From sequence record PZ386966.1: a DNA stretch of 64,000 bases; one strand, written 5' to 3'. Positions within the stretch are counted from its first letter, which is position 1. Each line of letters opens with the position of its first letter. Positions 2,584-56,604 of the stretch are shown here, in pieces. A model generated the notes under the pieces. The model saw nothing but the letters and a program-made list of their open reading frames with translations. It made no database searches and was not told where the DNA came from. A program made the position numbers and the translations under genes. This DNA comes from a phage.

Positions 2584-2943
2584 TTATGGGAACAGACACT
2601 TAATGTCATCGTTTTTGAAAACGAAACTTGTGTAGTTATGACCATCAACATCCAGCCAAACAGCCTGAACATCTACACCATCAAGATTTTGGTAAAGCTC
2701 TTTGATGAAGTGGTCTTTTACAATCTGACTGCTAGTTGTTTCCAACTTAATGTTAGAGATTGCTGAACCTACAGCCATATAGCCCATGACACGTTTCTTC
2801 TCAGTATGCTTAATCTTACCATCTTTGTAAGCCATAATGAGATTGGAAAGAATCTTTACACCATAATACTTCTCAAGGTGAGTAGGTACACCATAAAAGC
2901 CTAATGCAAAGTTTTCAGAGTGGATAATGTTTTCACGTTTCAT
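2584..2943 (-). CDS. hypothetical protein
   Basis: 119 aa ORF, co-oriented. Confidence 0.4.
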   Translation of the reverse strand: MKRENIIHSENFALGFYGVPTHLEKYYGVKILSNLIMAYKDGKIKHTEKKRVMGYMAVGSAISNIKLETTSSQIVKDHFIKELYQNLDGVDVQAVWLDVDGHNYTSFVFKNDDIKCLFP

Positions 2944-2944
2944 A

Positions 2945-3274
2945 TTAATCTGCCAACCTTAAATTGAAATTAACACCAAATTTTTCACATACTTCCAACA
3001 TATACTCAAGGGAGACGTTACCAGTGAGGTGGATTATGTTGGATACACGAGCCTGAGAGATACCACAAATTTTAGCAACTTGCTCTTGAGAAAGACCTCT
3101 GGATTTAATCTCTCTCTTAAAACGATGTGCAACGAAGTCTCTCATTTCGTCTACATCCATTGGACAAATATAACTCTCCATTTCAGCCTCTCTATCAGCC
3201 TCCCAATCATCTTGTGGGGCATAAGGGTCAAAGACCTCATTCATCTTTCTTCTTCCGTTTGCGTGAAGTGTCAA
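2945..3274 (-). CDS. helix-turn-helix (XRE-like) DNA-binding protein
   Basis: C-terminal LSQEQVAKICGISQARVSNI HTH-like segment. Confidence 0.5.
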   Translation of the reverse strand: MTLHANGRRKMNEVFDPYAPQDDWEADREAEMESYICPMDVDEMRDFVAHRFKREIKSRGLSQEQVAKICGISQARVSNIIHLTGNVSLEYMLEVCEKFGVNFNLRLAD

Positions 3275-52969: not shown

Positions 52970-52999
52970 TAGAAAATAAAAAAGGCTCCCGAAGGAGCC
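52970..52999 (-). terminator. intrinsic terminator downstream of lysozyme gene
   Basis: GGCTCC-TTCG-GGAGCC hairpin with T-run on minus strand. Confidence 0.6.
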
Positions 53000-53009
53000 T
53001 ATGAAGATA

Positions 53010-53474
53010 TTACTTTGGATATACACTGTCAAGATAAATGTCAGCTTCCATTCTACGTCTGTTTTTCAGGCCGTTTGAAGTGACCTTCTTACCTTTTACT
53101 GTAACCTTGTTCCACCACTGCATAGCTTCTGCACAACCGACCTTATTACCAGCATTGTGGCGCTTGATAAATGTAGAGTCCTGCATAGCTGTGATACCAA
53201 TGTTGTATGTTTCACTTACAAGTGCATCAAACTCATTCTGAGAAGTTGGAACCTTGATGGCTTTGTTCACTGCTGCAACGAACTTTTCAACATCTGCAAG
53301 AAGATACTGTTCAGCTTGTTCAGCGGTAATCTTCATACCCATCTTAACAGGTTTTCCGTCAATACGGATTGTCCCATACCCGATTGTTGGGATTCCGGCA
53401 GAGTCTTCGTAAGCCTCTAACTTCAGACCTTCAAAGAACTTAATAGCCTCTAAACCTTTTCTTGAGAGTTGCAT
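53010..53474 (-). CDS. lysozyme (T4 e-type, GH24 family) endolysin
   Basis: LEAIKFFEGLKLEAYEDSAGIPTIGYGT catalytic-region signature. Confidence 0.85.
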   Translation of the reverse strand: MQLSRKGLEAIKFFEGLKLEAYEDSAGIPTIGYGTIRIDGKPVKMGMKITAEQAEQYLLADVEKFVAAVNKAIKVPTSQNEFDALVSETYNIGITAMQDSTFIKRHNAGNKVGCAEAMQWWNKVTVKGKKVTSNGLKNRRRMEADIYLDSVYPK

Positions 53475-54607
53475 TATGCCTCCCCTGCTGGACTAACTGT
53501 AACTGTCGCTGCATTAGATGTTACAGAACCACCTGCACCAGTAACTACACAGGTGTAGCTTCCTGAATCAGCAGCGGTTGCACCTTCTTTGGTGTAAGTT
53601 GCAGTAGTTGCATCGAGGATATCTTCCTCACCTTTCTTCCACTGGTAACCTGTTGCACCTGTTGCCACAACATTCAGTGTTAAGGTCTCACCTTCATTGA
53701 TTTCTTGATTGGTTGGCTGTTGAGTGATTACTGGAAGTGCATTCACAGTAACTGTTGCAGCGTTAGACGTTACAGAGCCACCTGCACCTGTTACAATGCA
53801 AGTGTATGAACCTGCATCTGCTGGCAGAGCACCAGACTTGCTATAGGTAGCATTTGTAGCTGAAGGAATGTCAGAGCCATCTTTCTTCCATTGGTAACCT
53901 GTTGCACCTGTTGCAGTAACTGCTAAGTTGATGTTTCCACCTTCATTAATAGTCTGGTTAGAAGGTTGCTTGGTAATCACAGGTAGTGCGTTAACAGTAA
54001 CTGTTGCCGCATCTGAGGTAACGCTTGTTCCAGCCTCTCCAGATACAACACAAGTGTATGAACCAGCATCAGAAGGTACTACAGACTGTTTTGTGTAGGT
54101 TGCAGATGTGGCGCTAGTGATATCCTCACCATCTTTTTTCCATTGATATCCAGTGGCATTAGTTGCAATAACGCTTAGGTTAAGTGTACCACCTTCATTT
54201 ACTGTTTGATTGGTTGGTTGCTGAGTGATTGATGGTGGCTTGATAGCATCCTTCAACTTAGCATTCAACATTGAGAATGGTTTAACTCTTGCCAGCCATT
54301 CACAATAAACTGTATCAACATCTTTACCATTGATAATTGCATATTGCAAGTCCATGAAGAAGTCAGACGTTCTCATTTGAGCACCAACGCTGTAAAGCAA
54401 CTCATCACTAAATGGAACTTTGTAGTCTGGTTTGTAGTCAAACTTCTCAACTTCTGCAATATCAGCTTCAGGCCAATACGAACTATAGGTAAGTGGTAAA
54501 ATAGCCTCTTGATATGTTCTAAAATCATATCTCTTACCAGCCTTTACGTTCGCAACGAAGCCCTTCACAAACTCTTTGAAGTCTGGGTAAGTCTTTGCTT
54601 TAATCAT
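53474..54607 (-). CDS. protein with three tandem Ig-like repeats
   Basis: Three ~85-aa near-identical repeats (..QPTNQTINEGG..ATGYQWKKDG..SYTC(V/I)VTGAGGSVTS..ATVTVNA); N-terminal domain paralogous to 54604-54975. Confidence 0.6.
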   Translation of the reverse strand: MIKAKTYPDFKEFVKGFVANVKAGKRYDFRTYQEAILPLTYSSYWPEADIAEVEKFDYKPDYKVPFSDELLYSVGAQMRTSDFFMDLQYAIINGKDVDTVYCEWLARVKPFSMLNAKLKDAIKPPSITQQPTNQTVNEGGTLNLSVIATNATGYQWKKDGEDITSATSATYTKQSVVPSDAGSYTCVVSGEAGTSVTSDAATVTVNALPVITKQPSNQTINEGGNINLAVTATGATGYQWKKDGSDIPSATNATYSKSGALPADAGSYTCIVTGAGGSVTSNAATVTVNALPVITQQPTNQEINEGETLTLNVVATGATGYQWKKGEEDILDATTATYTKEGATAADSGSYTCVVTGAGGSVTSNAATVTVSPAGEA

Positions 54608-54975
54608 TTCTTTTTAGCCTCTAAATGTGCGTTTAGTCTAAAATAACCTTTGTGATGCGGAGATACATCACCAACAACAATACCTTTAACCTTATAGCCT
54701 TTACCAATTACATACTGGATATCCATAAGGAATCTTCCAAGTCCAACAATATGGAACATTGGGTATAATAGGTTCTCAGAATCTGGAATATTGATTTCAG
54801 GTTTGTAGGTACGCTGTTCGCTTGTTGGTGTAATATCTTCTTCAGGCCATTTACTGAGTCTCCATGTCAAAGGTGTTGGGATAACATCATTAAGGCTGTA
54901 CCTTTCACCATTTTGCACGGAATTGATATAGGATTGTAGGAAGCAATAAAAGTCTTTTGCACTCTTAGCTTTCAT
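54604..54975 (-). CDS. paralog of N-terminal domain of the Ig-repeat protein
   Basis: MKAKSAKDFYCFLQSYINSVQNGERY vs MIKAKTYPDFKEFVKGFVANVKAGKRY; FLMDIQYVI vs FFMDLQYAI. Confidence 0.5.
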   Translation of the reverse strand: MKAKSAKDFYCFLQSYINSVQNGERYSLNDVIPTPLTWRLSKWPEEDITPTSEQRTYKPEINIPDSENLLYPMFHIVGLGRFLMDIQYVIGKGYKVKGIVVGDVSPHHKGYFRLNAHLEAKKK

Positions 54976-55022
54976 TAAGTATCCTTATAAATAGTTAAAG
55001 GGGCATCAGCCCCTATTCACAC

Positions 55023-56105: not shown

Positions 56106-56232
56106 TAGGCTTATAAATACTTAGAAGATAACTTAAAAGGTTCCTCTAAAAAGGCTATTTAAACAGATATCTTTCTGGATATCTATCTTTTATCTTAAAA
56201 GCCTTTTAAGAGGTCTTATAAGAGGCATACCA

Positions 56233-56604
56233 ATGAAAAACAGAACAAACAAAGGCCAGTTTAAAAAAGGCCAATCTGGAAACCCATCTGGAAGACCAAA
56301 AGGCTCTCGTAACAAAAGCTCACTTGTAAAAGCTCAACTGACCATTGATAATTCTGCTGAGTTTGCTGCAAAGTTGTTTGAGGCGGTTGTTACAAGGGAT
56401 GCTGCTAAGCTTGCAGAGTTCGGTTTGACGACTGACGATGTAAACCTGAAGTCGATGATGGAGGCTGGTAAAACCATCATGACTCACTCAGCAGGTGAGA
56501 TGAAAGCGATTGCAGCAGACACTAAGAAGACCCCTGATAATGGTGGTCAGTCTCAGACAGATAACAAACCAACGTTCTCTGCTGTAGCGACTCTCAAAAA
56601 ATAA
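56233..56604 (+). CDS. hypothetical protein with basic GNPSGRPKG N-terminal motif
   Basis: 123 aa; FKKGQSGNPSGRPKGSRNK N-terminus. Confidence 0.45.
   Translation: MKNRTNKGQFKKGQSGNPSGRPKGSRNKSSLVKAQLTIDNSAEFAAKLFEAVVTRDAAKLAEFGLTTDDVNLKSMMEAGKTIMTHSAGEMKAIAADTKKTPDNGGQSQTDNKPTFSAVATLKK

What the first reader, a model, noticed from the sequence alone, without database searches (positions are those of the whole stretch)
53474..54975. Ig-repeat protein next to the endolysin, with a paralogous neighbour lacking the repeats
The 377-aa protein ends in three tandem ~85-aa Ig-like repeats that are nearly identical at protein level (implying ~255-bp DNA tandem repeats, about 53477-54229). Its N-terminal ~125-aa domain is paralogous to the adjacent 123-aa ORF. 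Ig-like domains in phages usually decorate virion surfaces; the location beside the T4-type lysozyme and the duplicated N-terminal module are unexplained.
Basis: seen in the sequence. Interest (0 to 1): 0.45.

Follow-up and report, generated by a model that had tools for sequence, protein, structure and literature searches.

The report
Phage head-decoration protein plus anchor-only duplicate
The Ig-repeat protein is the already-described Hoc-like fibre that Felix O1-type phages plug into the centres of capsid hexamers, and the only open point is its small neighbour, an unstudied stand-alone copy of the capsid-anchoring domain.

Summary
The window is a Felixounavirus (wV8/KhF3-like, 96-97% nt identity). 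The 377-aa ORF (53474-54607, minus strand) is the orthologue of Bas63 Hex-Dec (PDB 9NCF chain S) and Sf14 gp20 (9C2D/9C3A chain S). These are monomeric Hoc-like decoration proteins whose N-terminal ~120-aa capsid-binding domain (CapBD) sits in the centre of pentamer-adjacent hexamers of a T=9 head. Strings of Ig domains project outward.

The three Ig repeats are real (Pfam Ig_3/I-set; model pLDDT >90; titin/Robo-like). They are only 68-73% identical in protein and 67-68% in DNA, not "nearly identical". Copy number varies from 1 to 4 among relatives by whole-domain gain or loss, as already published.

The 123-aa neighbour (54604-54975) is a true paralogue of the CapBD (E 2e-16; its only PDB hits are those two chains).
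- It is translationally coupled, late-expressed and under purifying selection (dN/dS 0.12).
- It is confined to Felixounavirus and Mooglevirus and was lost once, in one lineage.
- It is not reported in published virion proteomes.
- Both capsid-contact arginines are replaced.

Neither structure paper mentions it, and its role is unknown. Main finding: already known. Residual interest: modest.

The parts
54604..54975 (-). 123-aa stand-alone paralogue of the capsid-binding domain (wV8 gp42, Felix O1 ORF37, Sf14 gp21; phrog_4463)
   Evidence: ORF. phrog_4463 at 1.3e-79, with a cross-hit to phrog_3995 at 1.2e-14. BLASTP to the 377-aa N-terminus gives E 2e-16. Its only PDB hits are 9ncf_S and 9c2d_S. 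dN/dS is 0.12. pI is 9.1.
54236..54607 (-). Capsid-binding domain (CapBD, aa 1-124) of the Hex-Dec orthologue. It carries R79 and R107, the residues that salt-bridge to MCP Asp221 in Sf14.
   Evidence: Three substitutions from Bas63 Hex-Dec across aa 1-124 in the alignment (about 98% identical). 87% identical to Sf14 gp20 CapBD. R79 and R107 numbering checked. Contacts are described in PMC11821841.
53984..54235 (-). Ig-like repeat 1 (aa 125-208)
   Evidence: Boundaries. Pfam Ig_3/I-set. pLDDT >90 and all-beta.
53735..53983 (-). Ig-like repeat 2 (aa 209-291). This module is absent from 2-Ig relatives such as Felix O1.
   Evidence: Module typing across 28 loci.
53486..53734 (-). Ig-like repeat 3 (aa 292-374), followed by a 3-aa tail and the stop codon at 53474-53485
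54604..54607 (-). ATGA start/stop overlap between the paralogue and Hex-Dec (translational coupling), with a conserved GAGG 11 nt upstream of the Hex-Dec ATG
   Evidence: Junction sequence. The overlap is conserved in all 29 related junctions while the lysine codons vary.
53010..53474 (-). Endolysin (T4-type lysozyme fold family PF00959). Its ATG overlaps the Hex-Dec stop codon (TAATG).
   Evidence: Pfam 6.6e-41. phrog_7 endolysin. Junction.
52983..53000 (-). Intrinsic terminator closing the three-gene unit
   Evidence: 7-bp stem with 5 GC pairs and a T-run. The equivalent site is annotated as a terminator in wV8.
55000..55013 (-). GC hairpin (GGGGCTGATGCCCC followed by TTT) just upstream of the paralogue. 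It is a weak terminator of the preceding gene and marks the 5' edge of the unit.
   Evidence: Sequence. The equivalent site is annotated as a rho-independent terminator in wV8. It did not pass the T-run criterion of the scan.

Best explanation
The 377-aa protein is the Felixounavirus hexamer decoration protein (Hex-Dec; Sf14 gp20), a functional analogue of T4 Hoc.

Shown in close orthologues: the N-terminal ~120-aa capsid-binding domain inserts as a monomer into the centre of the 60 pentamer-adjacent hexamers of the T=9 capsid. In Sf14 it is anchored by Arg79 and Arg107 to Asp221 of the major capsid protein. Both arginines are present here.

Inferred: the three I-set-type Ig domains form a flexible, acidic fibre pointing away from the head. 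They most likely mediate weak adhesion to host-surface or environmental glycans, which raises the rate of encounter with hosts. The Ig module number (1-4 among relatives) changes by in-frame gain or loss of whole ~250-bp repeats.

The adjacent 123-aa gene is a tandem duplicate of the capsid-binding domain alone. It arose in the common ancestor of Felixounavirus and Mooglevirus. It is made late together with Hex-Dec (4-nt ATGA overlap) and is kept by purifying selection.

The paralogue has fixed new sequences in exactly the two segments that carry the capsid-contact arginines, and it has become basic. My best guess (about 0.35-0.4, inference only) is that it is a non-structural or transient late accessory factor. 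It would act on capsid or Hex-Dec assembly rather than being a stable virion component.
For: Identity of the 377-aa protein:
- PDB 9ncf_S at E 1.6e-273 and 9c2d_S at 3.1e-171.
- About 97% nt identity to wV8/KhF3-type phages.
- Same gene order as Sf14 gp19-gp20-gp21 and Felix O1 ORF35-36-37.
- R79 and R107 are conserved.
- Capsid location, contacts and virion MS come from PMC11821841 and PMC12609058. Felix O1 gp36 was found in CsCl-purified virions (PMC3185647).
- Ig fold. The protein is acidic, pI 4.7.

Module variation: 1, 2, 3 or 4 Ig domains in 28 IMG/VR loci, built from four module types.

Paralogue:
- Homology. The Foldseek top two hits of its model are the two CapBD chains.
- It is present at a constant 122-124 aa in 27 of 28 loci. 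At least 80% of it is matched in 233 of 253 phage records.
- It is absent from Kolesnikvirus and a Hafnia Ounavirinae phage, which keep the Hex-Dec/endolysin pair.
- It is closer to its own-clade CapBD (59-66 bits) than to outgroup CapBDs (32-37 bits).
- dN/dS is 0.12.
- Felix O1 ORF36 and ORF37 both peak at 60 min (PMC3185647, Table 3).
- R79 aligns to an invariant Gly, and R107 to His or Gln. The densest runs of positions conserved within each family but different between them are paralogue residues 72-79 and 103-113.
- It is not listed in the Felix O1 virion proteome. By inference it is also not in the VpaE1 proteome (PMC3185647, PMC4690856).
- Neither cryo-EM study reports density on other capsomers (PMC12609058, PMC11821841).
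Against: Nothing here was measured on this particular phage; placement on the capsid is by orthology.

The adhesion role of the Ig fibre is untested for any Ounavirinae phage. The one functional hint is a PhageMaP screen of Bas63. In it, an Ig-domain gene (g124, presumably this orthologue) mattered more on E. coli S17-1 than on three other hosts (10.1101/2024.10.10.617714).

For the paralogue the negative virion evidence is soft.
- The Felix O1 table lists only proteins with at least 25% coverage.
- The Sf14 table lists selected structural genes only.
- A 14-kDa monomer sitting on an exact 3-fold or 5-fold axis would be smeared by icosahedral averaging.
- A basic paralogue would suit the Asp-lined capsomer centre described for Sf14.

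The AlphaFold model of the paralogue is poor (pLDDT 58). One lineage has lost the gene and is still isolated as viable phage, so any role is dispensable in culture.
Confidence: 0.85

Rival explanations
1. The 123-aa paralogue is itself a virion component. It would be an Ig-less cap occupying the capsomers that Hex-Dec does not bind (the 20 hexamers on icosahedral 3-fold axes, or the pentamers), or it would compete with Hex-Dec to set fibre density.
For: It has the same domain family across its full length. It is late and co-translated with Hex-Dec (PMC3185647, Table 3). It is basic (pI 9.1), while the Sf14 capsomer centre is described as lined with Asp (PMC11821841). Its altered contact segments are themselves conserved, which fits adaptation to a differently shaped site. 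The Sf14 authors attribute Hex-Dec selectivity to shifted Asp221 positions in the 3-fold hexamers. A monomer on a symmetry axis would be blurred in icosahedral maps.
Against: It is not among the proteins reported in Felix O1 or VpaE1 virions, although 9.7-13.7 kDa proteins were detected there (PMC3185647, PMC4690856). Bas63 authors state that no density is seen on other hexamers (PMC12609058). Both anchoring arginines are lost. A natural deletion lineage is viable.
Confidence: 0.18
2. The paralogue has been re-purposed for a job unrelated to the capsid, for example a host- or defence-directed late function. It would keep only the fold of the anchor domain.
For: There are 42 positions conserved within each family but different between them, against 35 shared. 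The shared residues are mostly aromatic or hydrophobic core positions. There is a charge switch from pI 6.3 to 9.1. It evolves faster than the CapBD (dN/dS 0.12 versus 0.05). It is dispensable in one lineage.
Against: Strict adjacency and the ATGA coupling to Hex-Dec are conserved across two genera, and both genes show the same late timing. These points suggest a linked function. There is no match to any Pfam, NCBIfam or non-Hex-Dec PDB family that would suggest another activity.
Confidence: 0.3
3. The 377-aa protein is a tail protein, as it is annotated in most genomes and as it was called in the Felix O1 genome paper.
For: GenBank annotations read 'tail protein' or 'putative tail protein'. 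phrog_3995 is labelled tail. PMC3185647 calls gp36 the major tail protein.
Against: Two independent cryo-EM studies built the orthologue into capsid hexamer centres. The Bas63 study explicitly calls the tail annotation an error (PMC12609058, PMC11821841). The PHROG 'major tail protein' matches cover only the Ig region.
Confidence: 0.02
4. The paralogue and Hex-Dec are fused by a programmed -1 frameshift at the T_AAA_AAG run just before the paralogue stop codon. This would give a double-anchor protein.
For: Hex-Dec lies in the -1 frame relative to the paralogue. A dnaX-like AAAAAG run sits 6 nt before the stop codon in this window.
Against: The heptamer is not conserved. wV8-type genomes have GAAAAG, and Mooglevirus genomes have AAGAAATGA or AATAAATGA, while the ATGA overlap and the GAGG are conserved. 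The cryo-EM models start at residue 1 of Hex-Dec, and the Felix O1 gp36 mass is given as 31.6 kDa, the unfused size.
Confidence: 0.02

Closest known systems
Bas63 (Escherichia phage JohannRWettstein) Hex-Dec, PDB 9NCF chain S
   Same: Orthologue. The CapBD differs at only 3 of 124 positions in the alignment. It has the same I-set-type Ig modules and belongs to the same genus. Per PMC12609058 it is a monomer at the centre of facet-edge hexamers with a pseudo-C2 two-lobed anchor.
   Different: Bas63 has four Ig modules and this window has three. The extra Bas63-type module lies between this window's repeats 2 and 3.
Shigella phage Sf14 gp20, PDB 9C2D/9C3A chain S (Mooglevirus)
   Same: It has three Ig modules and a CapBD 87% identical, with R79 and R107 at the same positions. 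The gene order lysin-gp20-gp21 is the same, including the 4-nt overlap with the paralogue. It was detected by MS in virions (PMC11821841).
   Different: It belongs to a different genus, and its Ig modules are more diverged.
T4 Hoc
   Same: It works the same way: a monomer at the hexamer centre carrying a string of Ig-like domains, non-essential, and implicated in adhesion and aggregation. PHROG 'Hoc-like head decoration' families match the Ig region.
   Different: The domain order is reversed (Hoc's anchor is C-terminal). The anchor is smaller and topologically distinct per PMC12609058. No sequence match to a Hoc anchor was seen here, and no anchor-only paralogue is known to me for Hoc.
T5 pb10
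   Same: [quoted passage not shown] Its Ig domain is a direct PDB hit (5lxk_A, E 1.2e-11).
   Different: It has a single Ig domain and an unrelated anchor, and the phage is a siphovirus with a T=13 capsid.
Kolesnikvirus (Erwinia phage M7 gp008) and Hafnia phage SarahDanielle gp85
   Same: Both have a homologous CapBD (E 1e-12 to 1e-16) and the same position immediately upstream of the endolysin.
   Different: The display domain is Big_2-type (PF02368) rather than I-set. No paralogue lies upstream.

Membership tests
Ounavirinae hexamer decoration protein (Hex-Dec / Sf14 gp20): the 377-aa protein | N-terminal capsid-binding domain homologous to the solved CapBD | tested here: met
   phmmer versus PDB gives 9ncf_S at 1.6e-273 and 9c2d_S at 3.1e-171, aligned from residue 1. 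It is 87% identical to the Sf14 CapBD.
Ounavirinae hexamer decoration protein (Hex-Dec / Sf14 gp20): the 377-aa protein | Capsid-contact residues Arg79 and Arg107 (salt bridges to MCP Asp221 in Sf14) | tested here: met
   Both arginines are present at the same numbering. The MCP itself is not in the window, so Asp221 could not be checked for this phage.
Ounavirinae hexamer decoration protein (Hex-Dec / Sf14 gp20): the 377-aa protein | C-terminal string of Ig-like domains | tested here: met
   Three Ig_3/I-set/Ig_2 stretches. The model has pLDDT >90 and is all-beta. Foldseek gives titin I67-I69 (TM 0.60), Robo and LRIG1.
Ounavirinae hexamer decoration protein (Hex-Dec / Sf14 gp20): the 377-aa protein | Conserved gene position directly upstream of the endolysin, outside the structural module | tested here: met
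Ounavirinae hexamer decoration protein (Hex-Dec / Sf14 gp20): the 377-aa protein | Physical occupancy of pentamer-adjacent hexamer centres on the virion | not testable with these tools
   This is known only for the orthologues (PMC11821841, PMC12609058).
Ounavirinae hexamer decoration protein: the 123-aa paralogue | CapBD homology over the full domain | tested here: met
   BLASTP E 2e-16. phmmer versus PDB gives 1.6e-11 and 8.4e-11 over residues 2-117. Foldseek top two hits have probability 0.99 and 0.97 with TM 0.45-0.49, on a low-confidence model.
Ounavirinae hexamer decoration protein: the 123-aa paralogue | Capsid-contact Arg79 and Arg107 | tested here: not met
   R79 aligns to an invariant Gly (HIVGLG). 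R107 aligns to His or Gln. Alignment in these loop regions carries some uncertainty.
Ounavirinae hexamer decoration protein: the 123-aa paralogue | Ig-like display domains | tested here: not met
   Family members are 122-124 aa, apart from a few shorter entries (88-120 aa), and none carries an Ig extension.
Ounavirinae hexamer decoration protein: the 123-aa paralogue | Presence in purified virions | not testable with these tools
   The literature is negative but not decisive. ORF37 is not in the Felix O1 list (PMC3185647). It is not among VpaE1's additional proteins (PMC4690856). Sf14 gp21 is not mentioned.
T4 Hoc family | Hoc-type C-terminal capsid-binding domain with N-terminal Ig domains | tested here: not met
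   The domain order is reversed. PHROG 'Hoc-like' matches (phrog_2973, 4069, 3945) lie only in the Ig region, aa 121-370. PMC12609058 reports a distinct anchor topology.

The most novel reading that the evidence does not exclude
The 123-aa gene encodes a previously unrecognised capsid-directed partner of the decoration system. It would be a stand-alone, remodelled copy of the anchor domain that does one of two things: it caps the capsomers Hex-Dec cannot bind (3-fold hexamers or pentamers), or it transiently controls where and when Hex-Dec binds during head maturation. To my knowledge no decoration system has been described with an anchor-only paralogue.
Probability: 0.3. Interest if true: 0.5.

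Novelty: already known. Interest (0 to 1): 0.27.

Why it matters
It matters for annotation. This protein is still labelled "tail protein" in most Felix O1-like genomes, including phages used for Salmonella and E. coli typing and biocontrol. It is in fact a head decoration fibre.

It also matters for engineering. The anchor-plus-modular-Ig layout, with 1-4 natural copies, is a ready display scaffold of about 60 copies per head.

The only new biology would come from the anchor-only paralogue. If it binds capsomers or regulates Hex-Dec placement, it would show how a phage controls which hexamers are decorated. Both structure papers leave that selectivity only partly explained.

Tried and rejected
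1. Tandem Repeats Finder found no ~250-bp array, because the copies are only about 67% identical. Protein-guided boundaries and the repeat finder were used instead.

2. The single exhaustive profile search was wasted. The profile built from A1 kept the first Ig domain (210 positions). The output was swamped by giant multi-Ig proteins (56,116 hits), and only one CapBD-bearing protein appeared in the top 150.

3. AlphaFold2 of the paralogue gave a weak model (pLDDT 58). The Sf14 authors also note that the AlphaFold CapBD did not reflect their density, so I did not over-read the model.

4. A -1 frameshift fusion at T_AAA_AAG was considered and rejected because the heptamer is not conserved.

5. 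Looked for any mention of the paralogue (gp21, gp125, paralog, duplication) in the Sf14 and Bas63 papers and in the Sf14 supplement. None was found.

6. No supplementary per-gene PhageMaP scores are held. That Bas63 g124 is the Hex-Dec orthologue is inferred only from its description (Ig domains aligned to Robo2).

7. A guessed Bas63 accession was wrong: MZ501111 is Bas51. Bas63 did not appear in the listed rows.

8. The wV8 proteome paper and the UAB_Phi87 paper contain nothing on these genes.

9. NCBIfam gave nothing for the paralogue. PADLOC was not run.

10. The word-index protein searches returned mainly 210-aa forms. Ig copy-number counts were therefore taken from IMG/VR loci instead.
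Full report
**What is in the sequence**

Three minus-strand ORFs are packed head to tail:
- a 123-aa ORF at 54604-54975;
- a 377-aa ORF at 53474-54607;
- a 154-aa lysozyme at 53010-53474 (Pfam PF00959, 6.6e-41).

The first two overlap by ATGA. The second and third overlap as TAATG. A strong intrinsic terminator follows the lysozyme at 52983-53000. A GC hairpin lies just upstream of the 123-aa gene at 55000-55013. The equivalent site in wV8 is annotated as a terminator.

The 377-aa protein has an N-terminal domain of about 124 aa followed by three repeats: aa 125-208, 209-291 and 292-374. Each repeat matches Pfam Ig_3, I-set and Ig_2 (E 3e-33 to 9e-26, three stretches each).

The repeats are 68-73% identical in protein and 67-68% in DNA. 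"Nearly identical" is therefore an overstatement. Tandem Repeats Finder does not report a ~250-bp array. The repeat finder does recover three-copy segments spaced 249 and 252 nt apart.

The N-terminal domain and the 123-aa ORF are true paralogues:
- BLASTP gives 36% identity over 101 aa, E 2e-16.
- Their PHROG families cross-hit.
- The 123-aa protein hits exactly two distinct sequences in the whole PDB, both over residues 2-117.

**Where the window comes from**

The region is 96-97% identical in DNA to wV8/KhF3-type phages of the genus Felixounavirus. At least 80% of it is matched in 213 of 251 matching phage records. The three genes correspond to wV8 gp42-gp41-gp40, Felix O1 ORF37-36-35 and Sf14 gp21-gp20-gp19.

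**What the 377-aa protein is**

The two PDB hits are chain S of 9NCF (phage Bas63; E 1.6e-273) and chain S of 9C2D/9C3A (phage Sf14; E 3.1e-171).

- In Sf14, gp20 binds as a monomer, one per asymmetric unit, at the centre of the pentamer-adjacent (quasi-3-fold) hexamers of a T=9 head.
- Its capsid-binding domain is the N-terminal 118 residues.
- Arg79 and Arg107 form salt bridges with Asp221 of the major capsid protein.
- The protein was found in virions by mass spectrometry (PMC11821841).
- In Bas63 the same protein, named Hex-Dec, binds only the facet-edge hexamers and has a pseudo-C2 two-lobed anchor.
- The Bas63 gene lies more than 10 kb from the structural module.
- Most genomes mis-annotate it as "tail protein" (PMC12609058).

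Felix O1 gp36 is the 2-Ig orthologue. It was one of the best-covered proteins in CsCl-purified virions (14 peptides, 44% coverage; PMC3185647, Table 4A).

In this window the anchor domain differs from Bas63 at 3 of 124 positions (alignment). It is 87% identical to the Sf14 anchor. R79 and R107 are at the same numbering.

My own AlphaFold2 model has a mean pLDDT of 88, with the three repeats above 90 and all-beta. Its best structural matches are multi-domain I-set arrays: titin I67-I69 (TM 0.60), Robo1/2 and LRIG1.

**Repeat-number variation**

I examined 28 related loci from IMG/VR. One is cut short by its contig end. In the rest, the protein has one (5), two (11), three (9) or four (2) Ig modules. 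The anchor stays 84-100% identical throughout.

Typing each module against four reference types gives the architectures [1,2,B3,3], [1,2,3], [1,2,B3], [1,3], [1] and [3]. The variation is thus in-frame gain or loss of whole modules, as expected from recombination between ~250-bp repeats. This agrees with the published range of 1-4 modules (PMC12609058, PMC11821841).

Several isolates other than Bas63 also align contiguously across a 4-module query, for example pinkbiff, MET-P1-301 and DaR-2019b.

**The position next to the lysozyme**

The Hex-Dec/endolysin pair is conserved beyond this genus. It occurs in Mooglevirus, Kolesnikvirus (Erwinia phage M7) and an unclassified Hafnia Ounavirinae phage.

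In the outgroups the anchor is homologous (E 1e-12 to 1e-16), but the display domain is Big_2-type (PF02368). The conserved unit is therefore the anchor and its place in a terminator-bounded unit, and the display part is exchangeable.

By RT-PCR, Felix O1 ORF36 and ORF37 peak at 60 min with portal, sheath and fibre genes. ORF35 (the lysin) peaks at 25 min (PMC3185647, Table 3). I see no evidence of a functional link to lysis beyond shared late-region transcription.

**The 123-aa paralogue: the part that is not in the literature I could read**

Neither structure paper mentions it. Searches for paralog, duplication, gp21, gp125 and related terms found nothing.

What the data show:

(i) It is a stable gene. 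It is 122-124 aa in 27 of 28 IMG/VR loci. At least 80% of it is matched in 233 of 253 phage records. No member carries Ig domains.

(ii) It is under purifying selection: pairwise dN/dS is 0.12, against 0.05 for the anchor of Hex-Dec and 0.11-0.13 for Ig module 1.

(iii) It is confined to Felixounavirus and Mooglevirus and is absent from the two outgroups. It is more similar to the anchor of its own clade (59-66 bits) than to outgroup anchors (32-37 bits). This points to a tandem duplication in the common ancestor of the two genera.

(iv) It has been lost at least once. Phage Z31, phage vB_CECAV_041 and one IMG/VR genome share the same ~230-nt deletion plus loss of the start codon. About 19 of 253 records match only the Hex-Dec anchor. 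The gene is therefore dispensable for growth in culture.

(v) Across an alignment of both families, 35 positions are invariant in both. These are mostly aromatic or hydrophobic residues. Another 42 positions are conserved within each family but differ between them. The densest runs of such positions are paralogue residues 72-79 and 103-113. These are exactly the segments that hold R79 (aligned to an invariant Gly) and R107 (aligned to His or Gln).

(vi) It is basic (pI 9.1, net +4), whereas the anchor is near neutral (pI 6.3) and full Hex-Dec is acidic (pI 4.7).

(vii) It is not in the Felix O1 virion list, although proteins of 9.7-13.7 kDa are (PMC3185647). VpaE1's 22 virion proteins add only gp54, gp58 and gp68 to the Felix O1 set (PMC4690856). 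By gene order the paralogue would be about gp40 there.

(viii) Its AlphaFold2 model is weak (pLDDT 58). It has the same secondary-structure order as the anchor in the full-length model: helices at about 6-21 and 76-91, then two strands. Its two best Foldseek hits are the solved anchors (probability 0.99 and 0.97, TM 0.45-0.49). The next hit has probability 0.57.

**Most likely mechanism**

For Hex-Dec the mechanism is carried over from the orthologues. The anchor plugs into 60 hexamer centres through R79 and R107. The three Ig modules form an acidic fibre.

The function of that fibre is inference by analogy with T4 Hoc: weak adhesion to glycans or surfaces, or control of aggregation. One genome-wide knockout screen reports that an Ig-domain gene of Bas63 (g124) is more important on E. 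coli S17-1 than on three other hosts (10.1101/2024.10.10.617714). The gene is described as aligning to Robo2, which is also my top eukaryotic hit. I could not verify the gene number against the genome record.

For the paralogue I favour a non-structural or transient late accessory role tied to Hex-Dec or the capsid (about 0.35-0.4). Co-translation and co-timing argue for a linked function. The lost arginines, the proteomes and the maps argue against stable binding at the Hex-Dec site.

Two rivals remain open:
The negative evidence is softer than it looks here. A monomer on a symmetry axis is blurred by icosahedral averaging, and the published proteome tables are filtered.
- A function unrelated to capsids (about 0.3).

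A frameshift fusion of the two ORFs at T_AAA_AAG was considered and rejected, because the slippery run is not conserved while the ATGA overlap is.

**Comparison with known systems**

The 377-aa protein passes every testable defining feature of the Ounavirinae Hex-Dec/gp20 family. It works like T4 Hoc and T5 pb10 but is not a member of either family. The Hoc anchor is C-terminal and, per PMC12609058, topologically distinct. The "Hoc-like" PHROG matches cover only the Ig region.

The paralogue passes the homology test. It fails two defining features of a decoration protein, the contact arginines and the display domains, so I do not file it as one.

**Verdict**

The main finding is real, but it was already explained by two 2025 cryo-EM papers and by earlier proteomics.

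The residual novelty is the conserved, selected, late-expressed anchor-only paralogue. It is worth a small experiment but is not a striking anomaly. Interest: 0.27.

Noticed in passing
window 56686-58101 (+) and 58267-63556 (+): A 471-aa protein with DUF2828, DUF7788 and a weak vWA match is annotated 'RNA-binding protein' in RefSeq wV8 and Felix O1. It sits directly upstream of an array of 24 tRNA genes. A DUF5681 protein (56233-56604) precedes it. The pairing of a putative RNA-binding vWA protein with the tRNA cluster is conserved in Sf14 as well.
   Followed up: partly
window 53486-54235 (Ig repeats): The closest solved non-phage relative of the Ig modules is the Aureispira grappling-hook protein GhpA (9flp_A, E 1.9e-80 over 15 stretches). 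A profile that included Ig module 1 hit 56,116 library proteins, and the top ones are giant proteins of 2,000-7,000 aa with 10-70 repeats. The module type is therefore shared with bacterial surface or adhesin-like giants.
   Followed up: no
L034 2441-3061 (Erwinia phage M7 gp008); L035 2501-3466 (Hafnia phage SarahDanielle gp85): Outgroup Ounavirinae keep the homologous capsid anchor and its place before the endolysin. They carry Big_2-type rather than I-set-type display domains. The anchor is the conserved module and the displayed domain has been swapped.
   Followed up: partly
L022 about 2750-3000; L032 and L033 about 2310-2500: One shared deletion removes most of the paralogue in an IMG/VR genome, Shigella phage Z31 and Salmonella phage vB_CECAV_041. 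All three also have the shortest (1-Ig) Hex-Dec, and in Z31 that gene is additionally split into two CDS. Other 1-Ig phages keep the paralogue, so the link may be only phylogenetic.
   Followed up: partly
window 54608-54620 (-): A dnaX-like T_AAA_AAG run lies just before the paralogue stop codon, with Hex-Dec in the -1 frame. It is not conserved in wV8-type or Mooglevirus genomes, so it is probably just lysine codons and ribosome-binding-site spacing.
   Followed up: yes
window 56166-56188 and 56203-56225: There are two pairs of 12-nt direct repeats in the divergent intergenic region between the minus-strand block and the DUF5681 gene. In KhF3 a feature annotated 'direct repeat sequence2 posible binding site of StbAB' falls within the matched stretch. 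It may correspond to this area.
   Followed up: no
window 54976-54999 (-): The sequence TATTTATAAGGA lies between the upstream hairpin and the paralogue start codon. How late transcription is controlled in Felix O1-like phages is stated to be unknown (PMC3185647). I did not test whether this motif recurs upstream of other late genes.
   Followed up: no
phage records H131-H135, H147: Several sequenced isolates (AN17P8, MET-P1-301, pinkbiff, DaR-2019b, vB_Si_DR094, LNA1) align contiguously over a 4-Ig query. Four modules are therefore not unique to Bas63, as a comparison limited to ICTV exemplar species might suggest.
   Followed up: partly
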